Assembly (NCBI RefSeq): GCF_056746865.1
Contig: NZ_CM163382.1
DNA length: 64,000 nt
Reading direction: 5' to 3' (one strand)
Every line of letters starts with the position of its first letter. The first letter of the stretch is position 1. Made by a program: the position numbers. Shown one piece after another: positions 6,001 through 12,000 of this stretch.

Positions 6001-9000
6001 GACAGCATTATCCGTGAAGTACAGTGTCTGGCTACAAGTCATGATGGTATTCACTTTGAGAAGCAGGGCTGTGTGCTGACACCTCCGGAAGGTATAATGC
6101 ATTTCCGTGATCCCAAAGTCTGGCACGAAGACGGCTCCTGGTGGATGGTCATTGGTGCCCGGGACGCTTCTGACAATGGGCAAGTTCTGTTGTATCGCGG
6201 GACATCTTTGCGGGACTGGCATCTGGAGCATGTTCTTGCTCATTCCGCAGCCGGAAAAAGTTATATGTGGGAATGCCCCGATTTCTTCAGGTGTGGTAAT
6301 TTTCACTGGCTGATGTTCTCACCACAGGGGATGCCCCCTTCCGGTTATCGGTTCCGTAACCTTTTTCAGAGCGGTGTGTTGGCAGGGAGCTGGAAGCCTG
6401 GTTCTGTCTTTGCGCTGAAAGGGGGATTTGAAGAGCTGGATTATGGTCATGACTTTTATGCTCCACAGTCCATGCTGGCTGAGGACGGCAGGCGTATCAT
6501 TATGGCATGGATGAATATGTGGGATTCACCCGTGCCCACCCGCAGTGAAGCCTGGGCAGGATGTCTGACGCTGCCCAGAGAGGTTTTTGAGCGCGATGGC
6601 CGGCTGTGCCAGCGACCTGTGCGTGAAGTCGAATCTCTGCGCAAAAAATGCCAGCCATTATCCCCTGTAAGGTTACAGGGTTTGCAATTACTGACCGAAA
6701 ATGTACAGGCCGCAGAATTATTGGTGACGTGGCATACGGTTGACAGTCATGCGGAGCACTATGGCGTCCGCCTTGGAGACGGTCTGCGACTTTATGTGGA
6801 TAATCAGGCCGGGCGATTGGTACTGTGGCGCTATTACCCTGAGGAAGGGTTGGATGGTTACCGCAGTGTTGAACTTCCTGATACAGAATATCTGACTCTT
6901 CGTATTTTCTTGGATCGTTCATCTGTTGAAGTGTTTGTTAACGATGGTGAGGCAACCTTATCAAGTCGTATTTATCCGCAAGCGGACTCGAGACAATTAT
7001 CGTTATATGCCGCTCATGGCGATGCGATATTAACTGATGGCACTTTATGGATGCTGACCTGAGACATATCGATATCAGTATTTTTTCTGACATTATCTGT
7101 CATTACTTTGCCAGTACACATTAATTATCTTTGCTGTGTGCTTTTGGTAATGTGTTGCGATTATATATACCAGTCTGGTGAAGAATATGAATGGTATTTT
7201 GTGTTGATACAGAGAATATAAGAGTACCCACATTTGTTTTTATTTAAGGGGGTAAAATGAATAAGTTACTTTTGGGTTTATCTCTTTTTTTATTACTGGA
7301 ATACAATGCGTGTGCAGCAAAAACAGGGGGGCTAACGCTTGAACAAAGAATGGCATTGCTGGAAGAACGCCTGGAAGCTGCAGAAAAAAGGGCGGAAAAA
7401 GCAGAAAGAATGTTAAAGAGTTTTGATATAGAACAACATTCTGAAATACGTCAAATTAGTTCAGAGCAGAATAAAAAAGATGCTAACAGCTATGCAGTAG
7501 TTGAGTCAACAAAAGAAAAAACATCTTCTCCAGGTTTTCTGCTCTCTGGTTACAATGATTTGAAGTTTTATGGTGATGTGGAGTTTAATATAGATGCTGC
7601 CAGTAAACCCGGTCAGTTAGTAATGATAAGTTCCGGGGCGAACAGTGAGTCAGTGAATGAACGGTGGGACCTTAATGGCCGTATTCTATTAGGTTTTGAC
7701 GGTACCCGTAAGCTTGATAATGGTTATTTCGCTGGATTTTCAGCACAACCACTGGCGGATATGCACGGTTCAGTGAATATTGATGATGCATTATTCTTTT
7801 TTGGAAAAGATGACGAGTGGAAAGTGAAAGTCGGTCGTTTTGAAGCTTACGATATGTTCCCTCTAAATCAGGATACTTTCATTGAGTATTCCGGTAATAC
7901 AGCTAATGATATTTATGCTGATGGCCGTGGTTATATCTATATGATGAAAGAGGGACGCGGTCGTTCTGACGCTGGTGGTAATTTCCTCATCAGTAAACAA
8001 CTCGATAACTGGTATTTTGAGTTAAACACGTTACTTGAAGACGGAACATCTTTATATAATAACGGTAATTATCATGGACGATATATGGAGCAGCAGAAAA
8101 ATGTCGCTTATCTGCGCCCGGTAATTGCCTGGTCGCCAACGGAAGAATTCACAGTCTCCGCAGCGATGGAAGCGAACGTGGTAAAAAATGCTTATGGCTA
8201 TACCGATAATAAGGGGAATTTTGTCGATCAGTCCAATCGTTCCGGTTATGGTATTAGCATGACATGGAACGGTCTGAAAACAGATCCGGAAAATGGCATC
8301 GTGGTTACTCTTAATACCGCCTATTTGGATGCCAGTAATGAGAAAGATTTCACTGCCAGTATTAATGCTCTGTGGAAACGTTTCGAACTGGGTTATATCT
8401 ACGCACATAATAAGATTGATGAATTTAGTGGTGTCGTGTGTAATAATGGTTGCTGGATTGATGGTGAAGGAATATACAACATTCACACCATTCATGCATC
8501 TTATCAGTTTGCTAATGTGATGGATATGGAGAACTTTAATATTTACCTCGGGGCTTATTACTCAATTCTGGATAGTAACTGTAGATATAGTAATTGTGAC
8601 ATTACCGATGATCGTTACGGTGCCCGATTACGTTTCAAATACTTTTTTTGATGCATAGTAACAAAGTATTGTTCCACACTTACATTAACGCGTTTTTCGG
8701 GCGCGTCATCAGCGATGCATACGAATGATCGCAGTCTGCCAATGGTCGATTTATCTTGGTTGCGCAGGGGCGAGCACCGGGCAGGTACCGGCGGCTGACT
8801 CTGAAGCTCTGAGTCGGGTAATTGCGTCAGGTCACGAAGGACTGACACGGGTATTGGTGGCAGGTGATGAAGTACTGAGTGTGGTAATTTCGGGGATGCA
8901 ATGCAGGAGCTGAGTCAGGTTTGCACTGAGCTGAGGACCCGTAGCGAGCGGGTTCCTGCTATTTTTCGGTGTCAGGGGCGCAAGTCCCGACGTCGGGACT

Positions 9001-12000
9001 TGCCGGGAGATTGTCAGGTCATTGACCGGGTGTGAGCGGCTCGACGTAAGCGGTAGATATGCCCAATTCCCCCCGATAAATTCATTACCAAACACATTAT
9101 TCAATTTGTTTTTATTTTTCCGCTTTCAGTCATTATCGCTATCGCTTCGTCGGTAATGACTCCAACTTATTGATAGTGTTTTATGTTCAGATAATGCCCG
9201 ATGACTTTGTCATGCAGTGGATTTGCCCCTATATTTCCAGACACCTGTTATCACTTAACCCATTACTGGCCCGCTGCCGTAGATATTCCCGTGGCGAGCG
9301 ATAACCCAGTGCACTATGCGGATGCCATTCGTTATAATGCTCGAACGCCTCTGCAAGGTTCTTTGCTGCCGTTAACCCGTCTGGTTTGGGCATGATACTG
9401 ATGTAATCACGCTTTATCGTTTTCACGAAGCTCTCTGCTATGCCGTTACTCTCCGGACTCCGCACCGCCGTGTTCTTCGGTTCAAGTCCCAACATCCGGG
9501 CGAACTGGCGCGATTTAGCCCCGACATAGCCCCACTGTTCGTCCATTTCCGCGCAGACGATGACGTCACTGCCCGGCTGTATGCGCGAGGTTACCGACTG
9601 CGGCCTGAGTTTTTTAAGTGACGTAAAATCGTGTTGAGGCCAACGCCCATAATGCGGGCTGTTGCCCGGCATCCAACGCCATTCATGGCCATATCAATGA
9701 TTTTCTGGTGCGTACCGAGTTGAGAAGCGGTGTAAGTGAACTGCAGTTGCCATGTTTTACGGCAGTGAGAGCAGAGATAGCGCTGATGTCCGGCGGTGCT
9801 TTTGCCGTTACGCACCACCCCGTCAGTAGCTGAACAGGAGGGACAGCTGATAGAAACAGAAGCCACTGGAGCACCTCAAAAACACCATCATACACTAAAT
9901 CAGTAAGTTGGCAGCATCACCCGCTTTGAAGTGAACAATAACCAGGGTCGTTTCGTATTTCCGGATACCTGGTTTGGCCCATTACTGGGGGAGTTTGAAG
10001 AAGTGCTTGATGCATACGACACTGATGAAATCAGTGAGACGGGTTATATCAACAAACTCAGACGCCTTGCTCAACAGGAGCCTGACTTTATTGATATACA
10101 CGCTCATCTGGCATATGCATTTCTGGAGCAGAATGCCCCGCGTAAGGCACTGAACGCCGCTCTTAAAGGACTGGCGGCAGGTAATCGTCTCATCCCGGAA
10201 AGTTTCAGTGGTGAAATCATCTGGATGCATCCCGAAAACCGCCCTTATCTGCGCGCGCTTTATGCAACAATTCTCGCAAATGTGCACTTACAGCGTCATC
10301 AGGATGCGGTTATGCTCACTGATAAAATACTGGCATACAATCCTGAAGATAATCAGGGTGCCCGCTGGTTGTTGGGCTCAGAACTGTTACGAACAGGCGA
10401 TCATAAGCAAGCCTTCAGTGTACTGAAAGAGCATGCTGATGAATTTTCACCTTACTGGTATGAACTTGGTCTTCTGCATTTTCTGAATGGGGAACATGTT
10501 AAGGCTGCCACAGCTTTTCGTCATGGCTTTGCTACAAACACTTACATCGCGGAAATGCTGTGCGGAAATTTGCATCCATTTCCACTTGCTGTGCGGCATA
10601 ACTTCTCCGGCTCTCTGGATACGGCAGAAGATTACTATGCAACATACTCACCATTATGGGGACAATATCCGGAAGCATTGCTGTTTGTAAACTGGCTCTA
10701 TAACCATTCCTCTGTGCTGCATGAACGAGCAGAAATCATTAAATGCGCCGAAATGCTGATGCAGGAAGATGATTTCGAAATATGCGAAAGCATTTTAAGA
10801 CAGCAGAAGCTGTTGCGGGAAAGAATTGATGAGACACTTTCTGAGGAAATTGTACAGAAATGCAGAAATATTAACGGTGAATATGTCTGGCCCTGGATAT
10901 TGCCGTTTTCAGCAGCAGGAATGAAACACTCAAGCATCCAGCATCAGTAGATATTGCATTAGTGTATCTTTCAAACAAGTAATAATTTATCCACCAGTAA
11001 TAACACAGTCCCCCTTCCCCAGGTTATCGCCCTGGGGGCATTTTCTGAAAGTTTCCTTTAAAAAAGAATAGAGTCGTAAATTACTTTAACGAATTATTCC
11101 TGGAGTTCATTAAAGTTCTTTCGTAATACTTTGTAATCAAACACGTTATGACTGGCATCAAAAACCACGGATTTCCCCTGCCAGCGGGTAATCACCTCCT
11201 CCGGCGTTTTCGGTTGAGCCGGTCTGGTTACGCCCATCCATGCATTAATCAGATAATCATTATACGCAGTGGAAAAAACGCTGTTCACCGTCTGGCGATC
11301 GACATGCTCTCCCAGTGCCGGGCTGTACCAGATAAACATCGGAACATGATAAGCCTGCTGACTGGGTTTTATTCCACCATGAAAATAGGCATGTTCTTTT
11401 GTCGGGTCATACTCCAGACCGTGATCTGAAAAATACATGACGGATGCCTGACGCGTTTCCAGCATGGTGAAAACCTGTCCCAACAAACTGTCGGTATAAT
11501 GAATGGAATTATCGTAACAGACTTCTTCTGTATCCAGCGGTTTAAACACGGCTTTATCTCTGGGCCAGTTACTGCAAACCGGTTCATGGCTGCCCGTCAG
11601 ATGCAGAACAATCAGTTTCCTGCTCCCCGGATTACTGTTCAGTGCTTCAGCCAGGTGTGGGAGCAGTAACTCATCATAGCCTCTGACATAAATTCTGTTT
11701 CTGGCCCGCATGGCGATACTGGCCACAGCCGTTCCGTTCTGTCGGAAAGCGGACTGCGCACTGAGCCACCAGGTATCGAACCCCGCCTGATTCGCCATGT
11801 TGATAATGTTATCAGGGTAATTACGGATATCATGATGCAGTACACTATCGGCAGATAACGCCAGTGGAACAGCCAGCGCGGTGTAAGGTGCGCCACTGAT
11901 TGCCTGAGTGAACAGTTTCAGTCGTGATTTCTGTTTCTGAAGCTCTGGTGTGGTAGGGCGCGAATACCCGTAAATGGACATGTTATCAGTCCTTGCAGAT

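What the first reader, a model, noticed from the sequence alone, without database searches (positions are those of the whole stretch)
8652..9217. Non-coding stretch after rafY containing a perfect 24-bp palindrome and repetitive CTGAG-rich sequence
The 566 bp between rafY and the IS2 end carry no convincing ORF but contain GCAAGTCCCGACGTCGGGACTTGC (8980..9003, perfect, spacer-less) and several short CTGAGTC / ACTGAGC repeats (8790-8940). This may be a remnant of the element that originally carried raf, or a binding site for a recombinase or regulator.
Basis: seen in the sequence. Interest (0 to 1): 0.3.

Follow-up and report, generated by a model that had tools for sequence, protein, structure and literature searches.

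The report
Fossil end of an IS66-family insertion sequence
The stretch after rafY is debris from mobile elements, mostly the dead right-hand end of an IS66-family insertion sequence, and the palindrome and CTGAG repeats are built-in features of that end, so the finding is real but ordinary.

Summary
The 24-bp perfect palindrome is at 8980-9003. CTGAG occurs 5 times in 166 bp, where 0.17 is expected.

The interval is not one unit but a patchwork:
- 8652-8665: rafY 3' flank.
- 8666-9042: right end of an IS66-family insertion sequence. It has a decayed 27-bp terminal repeat and about 350 bp of the non-coding tail that follows tnpC in intact copies. No transposase genes remain.
- 9046-9152: 3' flank and last 16 codons of a truncated BRO-N gene on the minus strand.
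- 9152/3-9217: the tip of an IS1, which is itself interrupted by the IS2-like piece.

Intact relatives are 2.6-2.8 kb and carry tnpA/B/C. One has 27-bp inverted repeats and an 8-bp target duplication. They have the same tail. The CTGAG motifs are cores of a unit repeated every 33 bp, and that spacing is kept across diverged elements. The palindrome is a branch-specific hairpin just 3' of tnpC.

The fossil is a mosaic. It matches the raf-plasmid allele up to 8701 and the island allele from 8688 onward, so it was a recombination joint for the raf cargo.

No ORF, Rfam family or promoter is supported. Interest is low. The one mildly novel point is the conserved architecture of this clade's right end.

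The parts
8652..8665 (.). 14-bp 3' flank of rafY, shared with raf plasmids
   Evidence: 100% identical to raf plasmid pC-F-163_A through this stretch and into the IS tip.
8666..9042 (-). Fossil right end of an IS66-family insertion sequence: terminal repeat plus the non-coding tail that follows tnpC in intact copies. No tnpA/B/C remain.
   Evidence: 8678-8875 is 89% identical to the right end of the 2773-bp IS in L003. 8859-9042 is 84% identical to the tail next to tnpC in L009, and 72% to L007/L008. Multiple alignment. Reference copies carry DDE_Tnp_IS66 and TnpB_IS66.
8666..8689 (-). Decayed terminal inverted repeat (IRR): GTATTGTTCCAC---ACTTACATTAAC
   Evidence: Aligns to the 27-bp IRR of full copies, for example GTAATATTCCGGCGAACTCATATTGAC in L003 and GTATTGTTCCGGCGAACTCATATTGAC in Sakai, with a 3-bp deletion and substitutions. 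The tip position is fixed by more than 25 distinct IS-end/flank junctions.
8802..8813 (-). Core of 33-bp repeat unit 3 (sense strand CTCAGAGCTTCA)
8835..8846 (-). Core of 33-bp repeat unit 2 (sense strand GTCAGTCCTTCG)
   Evidence: exactly 33 bp from its neighbours.
8868..8879 (-). Core of 33-bp repeat unit 1 (sense strand CTCAGTACTTCA, equal to the consensus)
   Evidence: Self-identity at shift 33 is 54%.
8903..8914 (-). Degenerate fourth unit (sense strand CTCAGCTCCTGC)
   Evidence: My reading of the sequence: it lines up with the weak fourth unit of L009, CTCAGTACCTGC. It has five mismatches to the core, so the assignment is tentative.
8935..8965 (+). Small G+C hairpin followed by a T run. 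It looks like a terminator on the plus strand, which is antisense to the lost tnpC.
   Evidence: Pattern scan. The block AAATAGCGGGAnCCCGC is conserved across the clade, with no covariation. Fold -7.0 kcal/mol, z = -1.7.
8980..9003 (.). Perfect 24-bp palindrome, forming a hairpin with a 10-bp stem and 4-nt loop
9043..9045. Junction between the IS66 fossil and the BRO-N gene flank
   Evidence: Homology to IS66 tails ends at 9042. Homology to other BRO-N loci starts at GTAAGCGG, position 9046.
9046..9100 (-). 3' flank of the BRO-N domain gene
   Evidence: 75-79% identical to BRO-N loci L096 and L097. Continuous with the intact gene in L005.
9101..9151 (-). Last 16 codons and stop codon of a truncated BRO-N domain gene
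   Evidence: Translates to DEAIAIMTESGKIKTN*, the C-terminus of the 263-aa protein of L005, which matches Pfam Bro-N.
9152..9217 (-). Terminal 65-66 bp of IS1 (the first G is ambiguous with the target sequence)
   Evidence: 98.5% identical to the end of IS1A in L006. The rest of this IS1 is at 9505-9922.
9218..9504 (-). Context: an IS3-family 3' fragment (IS2-like) that replaces 285 bp inside the IS1
   Evidence: The name IS2 rests on my recollection of its terminal repeat and on the annotation of a full IS2 in L098.

Best explanation
Window 8666-9042 is an inactive fossil of the right end of an IS66-family insertion sequence, oriented on the minus strand. It belongs to a clade whose members have an unusually long non-coding tail, 223-361 bp, between the tnpC stop codon and the terminal inverted repeat.

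Shown:
- The CTGAG-rich repeats are the cores of a 33-bp unit. The sense-strand consensus is TACC..a(C/G)TCAGTACTTCA.caCCTGaC. It is present in one to three copies, and wherever there are two or more they keep a 33-bp spacing in most elements (34-35 bp in L009).
- The palindrome is the version, specific to one branch, of a hairpin that lies just 3' of tnpC.
- The fossil lost tnpA/B/C through a break at 9043-9045, which fused it to the 3' flank of a BRO-N gene. That gene was later cut by an IS1.
- The fossil is a mosaic. It carries the raf-plasmid allele up to 8701 and the island allele from 8688 onward.

Inferred:
- In a live element, the phased repeats are most likely a binding array for one of the element's own transposition proteins.
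- The hairpin, together with the neighbouring hairpin and T run that face inward, most likely handles transcription at the tnpC 3' end, either as a 3'-end stabiliser or as a block to antisense read-in.
- In this window these features have no transposition role. Their consequence was to provide homology for recombination that joined, or exchanged, the raf cargo. They may also stop read-through transcription from rafY.
For: Identity as an IS66-family right end:
- 8678-8875 is 89% identical, without gaps, to the segment next to tnpC in L003. 8859-9042 is 84% identical to the tail abutting tnpC in L009, and 72% to L007/L008.
- L003's element is bounded by 27-nt inverted repeats, is 2773 bp long, and is flanked by the 8-bp duplication GTTTTCTG. 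Its proteins match DDE_Tnp_IS66 (1e-90) and TnpB_IS66 (3e-35).
- An identical copy lies on an E. coli W plasmid, and 201 of 5426 E. coli genomes hold a copy covering at least 80% of its length.
- More than 25 different flanks meet the same IS tip.

Repeats:
- Cores sit exactly 33 bp apart in the window, L003, L004, L007/8, L011 and L013, with none in the antisense orientation. The consensus from 18 units is, and the periodicity statistic.
- Relatives in Photorhabdus, and IS682, have only about 30-55 bp after tnpC. The long tail is therefore specific to this clade.

Hairpin:
- The palindrome sits in the same place in L007 and L009. The L007 allele differs by two paired changes (positions 2/23 and 9/16, C:G to T:A) plus one mismatch.
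- Other branches have different hairpins at the same site, for example a 17-bp stem in L003.

Mosaic and context.

Negative results: no Pfam hit, no Rfam hit, and no promoter-like site inside the fossil.
Against: - The terminal repeat in the window is badly decayed, with a 3-bp deletion and several substitutions. Only one end is present, so a target duplication cannot be checked.
- No intact IS with exactly this tail was found in 5426 E. coli genomes, in PLSDB, or in the metagenome pattern scan. The fossil best matches different relatives in its two halves.
- The functional readings are not demonstrated. Only three palindrome alleles exist, so the covariation evidence is thin. L009 has one wobble pair and one mismatch, and the L019 branch has no convincing hairpin.
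- The palindrome is not followed by a U run on either strand.
- The repeat units show no significant similarity to the terminal repeats.
- Only the L003 copy showed a target duplication; L007, L008, L012 and L019 did not.
Confidence: 0.88

Rival explanations
1. The palindrome, the repeats or both are a working cis site of the raf island: an operator for a regulator, or a recombinase site used to move raf.
For: A perfect 24-bp palindrome is far beyond chance. The island has a tyrosine recombinase at its left edge. The raf operon is known, from my own knowledge of the Raf system, to be controlled through palindromic operators.
Against: The palindrome and repeats occur at the same positions inside intact IS66-family elements unrelated to raf. 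The same fossil exists without raf. The raf plasmid's copy of the fossil is cut off at about 8851 and lacks the palindrome, yet keeps a complete raf operon. The sequence does not resemble the palindrome CCGAAACGTTTCGG located between rafR and rafA.
Confidence: 0.04
2. Whatever its origin, the fossil now acts as the transcription terminator, or 3'-end stabiliser, of the raf operon. The plus-strand hairpin with T run at 8935-8965, backed by the 24-bp hairpin, would stop transcripts leaving rafY.
For: Two overlapping terminator-like sites were found on the plus strand at 8935-8965. A strong hairpin follows directly. No other terminator-like site was reported between the rafY stop codon and 8935.
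Against: The small hairpin is weak: -7 kcal/mol, z = -1.7. It lies about 290 nt beyond the stop codon. Raf plasmids lack this part of the fossil, so raf does not depend on it. There are no expression data.
Confidence: 0.25
3. The region encodes a small protein. RefSeq annotates a 58-62 aa hypothetical protein at 8725-8913 (plus strand) in a few genomes, and a minus-strand frame is open across 8678-8875.
For: Annotated as WP_023154806.1 or WP_162843692.1 in some genomes. The minus-strand frame is open in both the window and L003.
Against: Most genomes leave the region unannotated. No Pfam hit. The plus-strand ORF has 3 stop codons in L003. The 22 differences from L003 show no third-position bias (10/4/8) and change 12 of the 66 minus-frame codons. 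Conservation of the repeat cores covers every nucleotide, which is the pattern of a DNA or RNA element.
Confidence: 0.03
4. The tail encodes a structured non-coding RNA of the IS, for example a regulator of tnpC or a guide-type RNA as in IS110 or IS200/605 elements. The fossil would be a dead copy of that RNA gene.
For: The tail is a long, conserved non-coding segment with hairpins. Fold z-scores are -2.3 to -3.2 in three branches. A hairpin with T run could mark a 3' end on the plus strand.
Against: No Rfam match. No promoter-like site inside the fossil. The consensus fold across the clade is weak, -5.9 kcal/mol with almost no covariation. Hairpins differ between branches and one branch lacks one. 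Strict 33-bp phasing of a one-orientation motif fits DNA-binding sites better than an RNA fold.
Confidence: 0.07

Closest known systems
IS66 family of insertion sequences (IS66, IS679, ISEc8, IS682). The family definition is from my own knowledge of Han et al. 2001 (J Bacteriol 183:4296) and Gourbeyre et al. 2010 (Res Microbiol 161:136). Neither paper was readable here.
   Same: The reference copies of this clade have tnpA-tnpB-tnpC with DDE_Tnp_IS66 and TnpB_IS66 domains, inverted repeats of about 27 bp starting GTA/GTAA, and an 8-bp target duplication in L003. The window segment is homologous to their right end.
   Different: The window holds only a one-ended fossil with no genes and a decayed repeat. 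The clade's right end is 223-361 bp long and carries phased 33-bp repeats and hairpins. IS682 in Sakai and the Photorhabdus relatives have only about 30-55 bp after tnpC. The tools gave no ISfinder name for any of the copies.
Solo IS ends and IS fossils that serve as homology for recombination at the edges of genomic-island cargo
   Same: It is a single IS end with no transposase at the boundary between a cargo operon (raf) and the island backbone. An allele switch inside it shows a crossover. Alternative cargo, a helicase gene, sits at the same joint in L087.
   Different: The direction of the exchange and the partner molecules are not established.
Subterminal multi-site arrays that bind transposase in Mu, Tn7 and similar elements (functional analogy only, from my own knowledge)
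   Same: Several copies of a conserved motif, all in one orientation, at fixed helical phasing (33 bp, about 3 turns), near one transposon end.
   Different: The array is present only at the right end; the 85-bp left end has none. It lies 87-214 bp from the tip. The units are not significantly similar to the terminal repeat. No binding data exist.
Intrinsic (Rho-independent) terminators
   Same: The site at 8935-8965 on the plus strand is a G+C hairpin followed by ATTTTT.
   Different: The 24-bp palindrome itself has no U run on either strand, so it does not fit the pattern.

Membership tests
IS66-family insertion sequence (right-end fragment) | Sequence homology to the end of elements that encode tnpA, tnpB and a DDE_Tnp_IS66 TnpC | tested here: met
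   89% over 198 bp to L003 and 84% over 184 bp to L009, both directly downstream of tnpC. Domains confirmed.
IS66-family insertion sequence (right-end fragment) | Terminal inverted repeat of about 20-30 bp beginning GTA(A) | tested here: inconclusive
   The window has GTATTGTTCCACACTTACATTAAC at 8666-8689. It aligns to the 27-bp repeat of full copies but carries a 3-bp deletion and several substitutions. It is recognisable but probably not functional.
IS66-family insertion sequence (right-end fragment) | tnpA/tnpB/tnpC present in the element | tested here: not met
   No IS66 genes lie next to the fossil. Homology stops at 9042, about 23 bp short of where the tnpC stop codon lies in L009. It is therefore filed as a fragment, not as an IS.
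IS66-family insertion sequence (right-end fragment) | 8-bp target-site duplication | not testable with these tools
   Only one end survives in the window. The reference copy L003 has GTTTTCTG on both sides. L007, L008, L012 and L019 show none.
Intrinsic terminator | G+C-rich hairpin followed immediately by a U/T run | tested here: not met
   For the palindrome at 8980-9003, the plus strand continues CGGGAGATTG and the minus strand continues GCCCCTGACA. The separate site at 8935-8965 (plus strand) does fit the pattern.
Described RNA families (Rfam 15) | Covariance-model match | tested here: not met
   Only a chance snoRNA hit (E = 0.68) inside rafY. Nothing in the right ends of L003, L007, L009, L012 or L013.
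Protein-coding gene | Conserved open frame with a codon-like substitution pattern or a family match | tested here: not met
   No Pfam match. The plus-strand ORF is broken in L003, and there is no third-position bias.
Tandem-repeat or iteron-like protein-binding array | Repeated motif at constant spacing, conserved across diverged relatives | tested here: met
   33-bp spacing in six element types. Consensus from 18 units. Periodicity exceeds all 2000 shuffles. Protein binding itself cannot be tested here.

The most novel reading that the evidence does not exclude
The long right end of this enterobacterial IS66 clade may be a functional cis module that I did not find described for the family in the held library. 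It would consist of an array of 33-bp phased sites bound by one of the element's proteins, together with a hairpin at the tnpC 3' end. It might control transposition or attract new insertions. In both nested copies seen in this clade, Sakai SpLE1 and a Salmonella plasmid, the incoming IS end abuts the 5' edge of a repeat core. The window would hold a dead copy of that module.
Probability: 0.3. Interest if true: 0.4.

Novelty: new member of a known kind. Interest (0 to 1): 0.15.

Why it matters
For this window, the result removes a candidate regulatory or recombination site. The interval is mobile-element debris, and the small 'hypothetical proteins' that RefSeq sometimes calls here are almost certainly spurious.

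It also dates and orders events in a raffinose-utilisation island found in about 5% of complete E. coli genomes. One GWAS linked rafY to chicken isolates (PMC12987596). The inferred order is: an IS66 insertion next to rafY, then a break fusing the IS tail to a BRO-N gene, then a crossover within the tail, and finally truncation by IS1 and IS2.

More generally, it shows that one IS66 clade has a structured right end of 220-360 bp with phased repeats. This is a small but testable lead for a family whose transposition mechanism is poorly understood.

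Tried and rejected
- **Tandem Repeats Finder** found nothing. The 33-bp repeat only appeared through comparison with relatives and an autocorrelation test.
- **Rfam**, at permissive thresholds on the window and on five related loci, gave nothing relevant.
- **Coding potential**: no Pfam hits and no codon-like substitution pattern.
- **Promoter scan**: none inside the fossil. I therefore dropped the idea of a small RNA starting at the IS tip.
- **Repeat units as degenerate copies of the terminal repeat**: local alignments were no better than shuffles, p mostly above 0.1. Rejected.
- **More palindrome alleles for covariation**: the viral-contig pattern scan gave only chance hits. 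The metagenome scan, with the palindrome left unconstrained, returned only the two alleles already known.
- **Consensus RNA fold across the clade** was weak.
- **A name for the IS**: RefSeq annotation and protein-cluster names say only 'IS66 family'.
- **Key papers**: Han et al. 2001 and Ulmke et al. 1997 are not held.
- **GTAAGCGG at the 9046 junction as an IS66 tip**: it shares only the heptamer with the IS682 repeats and is also present in BRO-N loci that lack the fossil. Left unexplained.

Full report
**Observation.** GCAAGTCCCGACGTCGGGACTTGC occupies 8980-9003 as a perfect palindrome with no spacer. It is the second longest perfect palindrome in the window, and no mononucleotide shuffle out of 200 reached 24 bp. 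As single-stranded DNA it forms a 10-bp stem with a 4-nt loop (-11.6 kcal/mol, z = -3.35). CTGAG occurs five times in 8780-8945, against 0.17 expected. Tandem Repeats Finder reported nothing. An autocorrelation test nonetheless shows a 33-bp period: 54% self-identity at that shift, above the best shift of every one of 2000 shuffles.

**What the interval is made of.** Similarity searches split the 566 bp into four pieces of different origin.
- *8652-8665* is the rafY 3' flank. It is identical in a raf plasmid.
- *8666-9042* matches sequence that always lies directly downstream of an IS66-family tnpC gene in other records. These are an IncI-gamma/K plasmid (L003, 89% over 198 bp), E. coli chromosomes carrying a Dr-adhesin island (L007/L008, 72%), a Salmonella diarizonae plasmid (L009, 84% over 184 bp), an Enterobacter plasmid (L010) and the SpLE1 element of O157 Sakai (L004).
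- *9046-9152* is the 3' flank and the last 16 codons of a BRO-N domain gene on the minus strand. The gene is intact in strain EC974, and the window translates to DEAIAIMTESGKIKTN*, the protein's C-terminus.
- *9152/3-9217* is the tip of an IS1. The rest of that IS1 is at 9505-9922, and 285 bp of its interior have been replaced by a 287-bp IS3-family (IS2-like) fragment.

**Proof that 8666-9042 is the end of an IS.** In L003 the segment is enclosed by 27-nt inverted repeats, GTAATATTCCGGCGAACTCATATTGAC and GTAATGTTCCGGGGAACTCATCTTCAC, that bound a 2773-bp element. That element is flanked on both sides by GTTTTCTG, the 8-bp duplication typical of the family. Its proteins match DDE_Tnp_IS66, zf-IS66, LZ_Tnp_IS66 and TnpB_IS66. 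An identical copy lies on an E. coli W plasmid, and 201 of 5426 complete E. coli genomes hold a copy covering at least 80% of its length. Across the loci collected, more than 25 different flanking sequences meet the same tip. Relatives from Cedecea and Edaphovirga have perfect repeats over the 21 tip-proximal nucleotides compared (the search pattern was the last 21 nt of the IRR) and are 2622-2624 bp long. The window's own tip, GTATTGTTCCAC---ACTTACATTAAC at 8666-8689, is recognisable. It has lost 3 bp and carries several substitutions.

**Anatomy of the right end.** Going from the tnpC stop codon to the tip, members of this clade have 223-361 bp of non-coding DNA. Photorhabdus relatives and IS682 have only about 30-55 bp. 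The tail contains three features.
- *A hairpin site next to a conserved block, GGACTTGCGCGCCTGAC.* In the branch formed by the window, L007 and L009 the hairpin is the palindrome. L003-type elements instead have a 17-bp stem with a 32-nt loop. The Cedecea type has a 6-bp stem, and the Edaphovirga type has none that is convincing.
- *A small block, AAATAGCGGGAnCCCGC.* Read on the window's plus strand, it is a short hairpin followed by a T run.
- *One to three copies of a unit with sense consensus TACC..a(C/G)TCAGTACTTCA.caCCTGaC.* Copies are all in one orientation and exactly 33 bp apart in the window, L003, L004, L007/8, L011 and the Erwinia element.

**Is the palindrome under selection?** Only three alleles turned up in complete E. 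coli genomes, PLSDB and a metagenome scan that left the palindrome unconstrained. Compared with the window, the L007 allele has two paired changes that keep the symmetry (positions 2/23 and 9/16) and one mismatch. The L009 allele has two unpaired changes. This suggests a hairpin but is too little to prove one. Neither strand has a U run after the palindrome, so it is not a canonical terminator.

**History.** Homology to IS66 tails stops at 9042, about 23 bp short of where tnpC would end. Homology to other BRO-N loci begins at 9046. A break therefore removed tnpA/B/C and fused the tail to the BRO-N flank. The same fusion occurs in metagenome contigs whose other flank is not rafY. In L087 a helicase gene sits there. 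In L085 another IS66-type end abuts the tip. The fusion is therefore independent of raf.

The fossil is a mosaic. It is 100% identical to the raf plasmid pC-F-163_A from rafY through 8701 and then drops to about 80% identity with indels. It is almost identical to L087 from 8688 onward but differs from it in the tip. This places a crossover at 8688-8701, inside the fossil. The raf plasmid also carries a truncated copy of a tyrosine-recombinase (integrase) gene upstream of rafR, in the position the integrase holds in the chromosomal island (its identity to the island's integrase was not checked). The raf block therefore appears to have moved between replicons together with neighbouring sequence, and no second IS66 end flanks it. 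I conclude that the fossil served as homology for exchanging or joining the raf cargo, not as the vehicle that carried raf.

**Alternatives examined.**
- *Coding:* no Pfam hit for any ORF in the interval. The 62-aa ORF that RefSeq annotates in a minority of genomes is broken in L003, and substitutions show no codon bias.
- *Known RNA:* none.
- *Promoter:* none inside the fossil.
- *Conserved RNA fold:* weak.
- *Repeat units as copies of the terminal repeat:* not supported.
- *A role in raf regulation:* unlikely, because raf plasmids keep a full operon without the palindrome.
- *An incidental role as the terminator for transcripts leaving rafY:* plausible, given the plus-strand hairpin with T run at 8935-8965 followed by the strong hairpin, but untested.

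**Comparison with what is known, and verdict.** The piece belongs to the IS66 family by homology and by the properties of its intact relatives, but it is a gene-less, one-ended fragment. The long right end with phased repeats appears to be peculiar to one enterobacterial clade. I found no description of it in the papers I could search, and the two key family papers were not available.

The finding is real but ordinary. Identity as an IS66 fossil carries high confidence, about 0.88. The functional reading of its internal features, as a protein-binding array and a 3'-end hairpin, is inference at moderate to low confidence. Interest is 0.15.

Noticed in passing
window 1141-1172: A perfect 32-bp palindrome, TCAGCTTCCACCCGTGCACGGGTGGAAGCTGA, lies inside the rafR coding sequence, just after the N-terminal DNA-binding region (protein ...VSASTRARVEAEA...). 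It is the longest palindrome in the window and is identical in the raf plasmid L098 and in SMS-3-5.
   Followed up: partly
L004 (O157 Sakai SpLE1) 4001-4347; L009 3835-4173; L040 (Photorhabdus) 409-700: IS66-family right ends occur as nested or tandem arrays. In Sakai and in the Salmonella plasmid, the tip of a second copy abuts the 5' edge of a 33-bp repeat core of an older copy (...AC|CTCAGTTCTTCA and ...AC|TCAGTACCTGCC). In Photorhabdus, three successive tips sit inside the last 60-90 bp of tnpC. This suggests the family tends to insert into the 3' end of resident copies.
   Followed up: partly
window 9043-9052: The break that fused the IS66 tail to the BRO-N flank lands exactly at GTAAGCGG. 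GTAAGCG is the canonical tip heptamer of IS66-family repeats, as in IS682. The heptamer is also present in BRO-N loci without the fossil, where a truncated YfjJ-like ORF ends in its TAA. It could be coincidence or an old pseudo-end; unresolved.
   Followed up: partly
window 9152-9922: This IS1 has 285 internal bp replaced by a 287-bp IS3-family (IS2-like) 3' fragment, which creates a chimeric 147-aa ORF (9229-9672, minus strand) fusing InsB and IS2 OrfB sequence. The IS1 flanks do not form a target duplication, and the 5' 740 bp of the BRO-N gene are missing, consistent with a deletion adjacent to the IS1.
   Followed up: partly
L098 (raf plasmid pC-F-163_A) 5251-6009: The plasmid-borne raf operon is preceded by a truncated tyrosine-recombinase (integrase) gene, cut by IS2, in the same position as the integrase of the chromosomal island. 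I did not check whether the two integrases are the same gene. The arrangement suggests the plasmid copy derives from an island-type arrangement rather than the reverse.
   Followed up: no
E. coli genomes, hits H152-H164: A fragment of about 400 bp, covering the C-terminal part of an IS66-type tnpC and the first 150 bp or so of its tail at 82-83% identity, is annotated as 'transposase domain-containing protein' in many unrelated E. coli chromosomes. It appears to be a widespread older fossil of the same clade.
   Followed up: no
L009 6634-6857; L007 716-794: Group II intron RNA domains lie next to IS66 copies in the Salmonella plasmid and in the Dr-adhesin island (Rfam RF02005, E = 9e-48; RF00029, E = 7e-9). 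In L009 the intron sits about where the IS left repeat should be, which may explain that copy's poor left repeat.
   Followed up: no
window 61823-61842: Another perfect palindrome, 20 bp long: GTTTTCATGTACATGAAAAC. Not examined.
   Followed up: no
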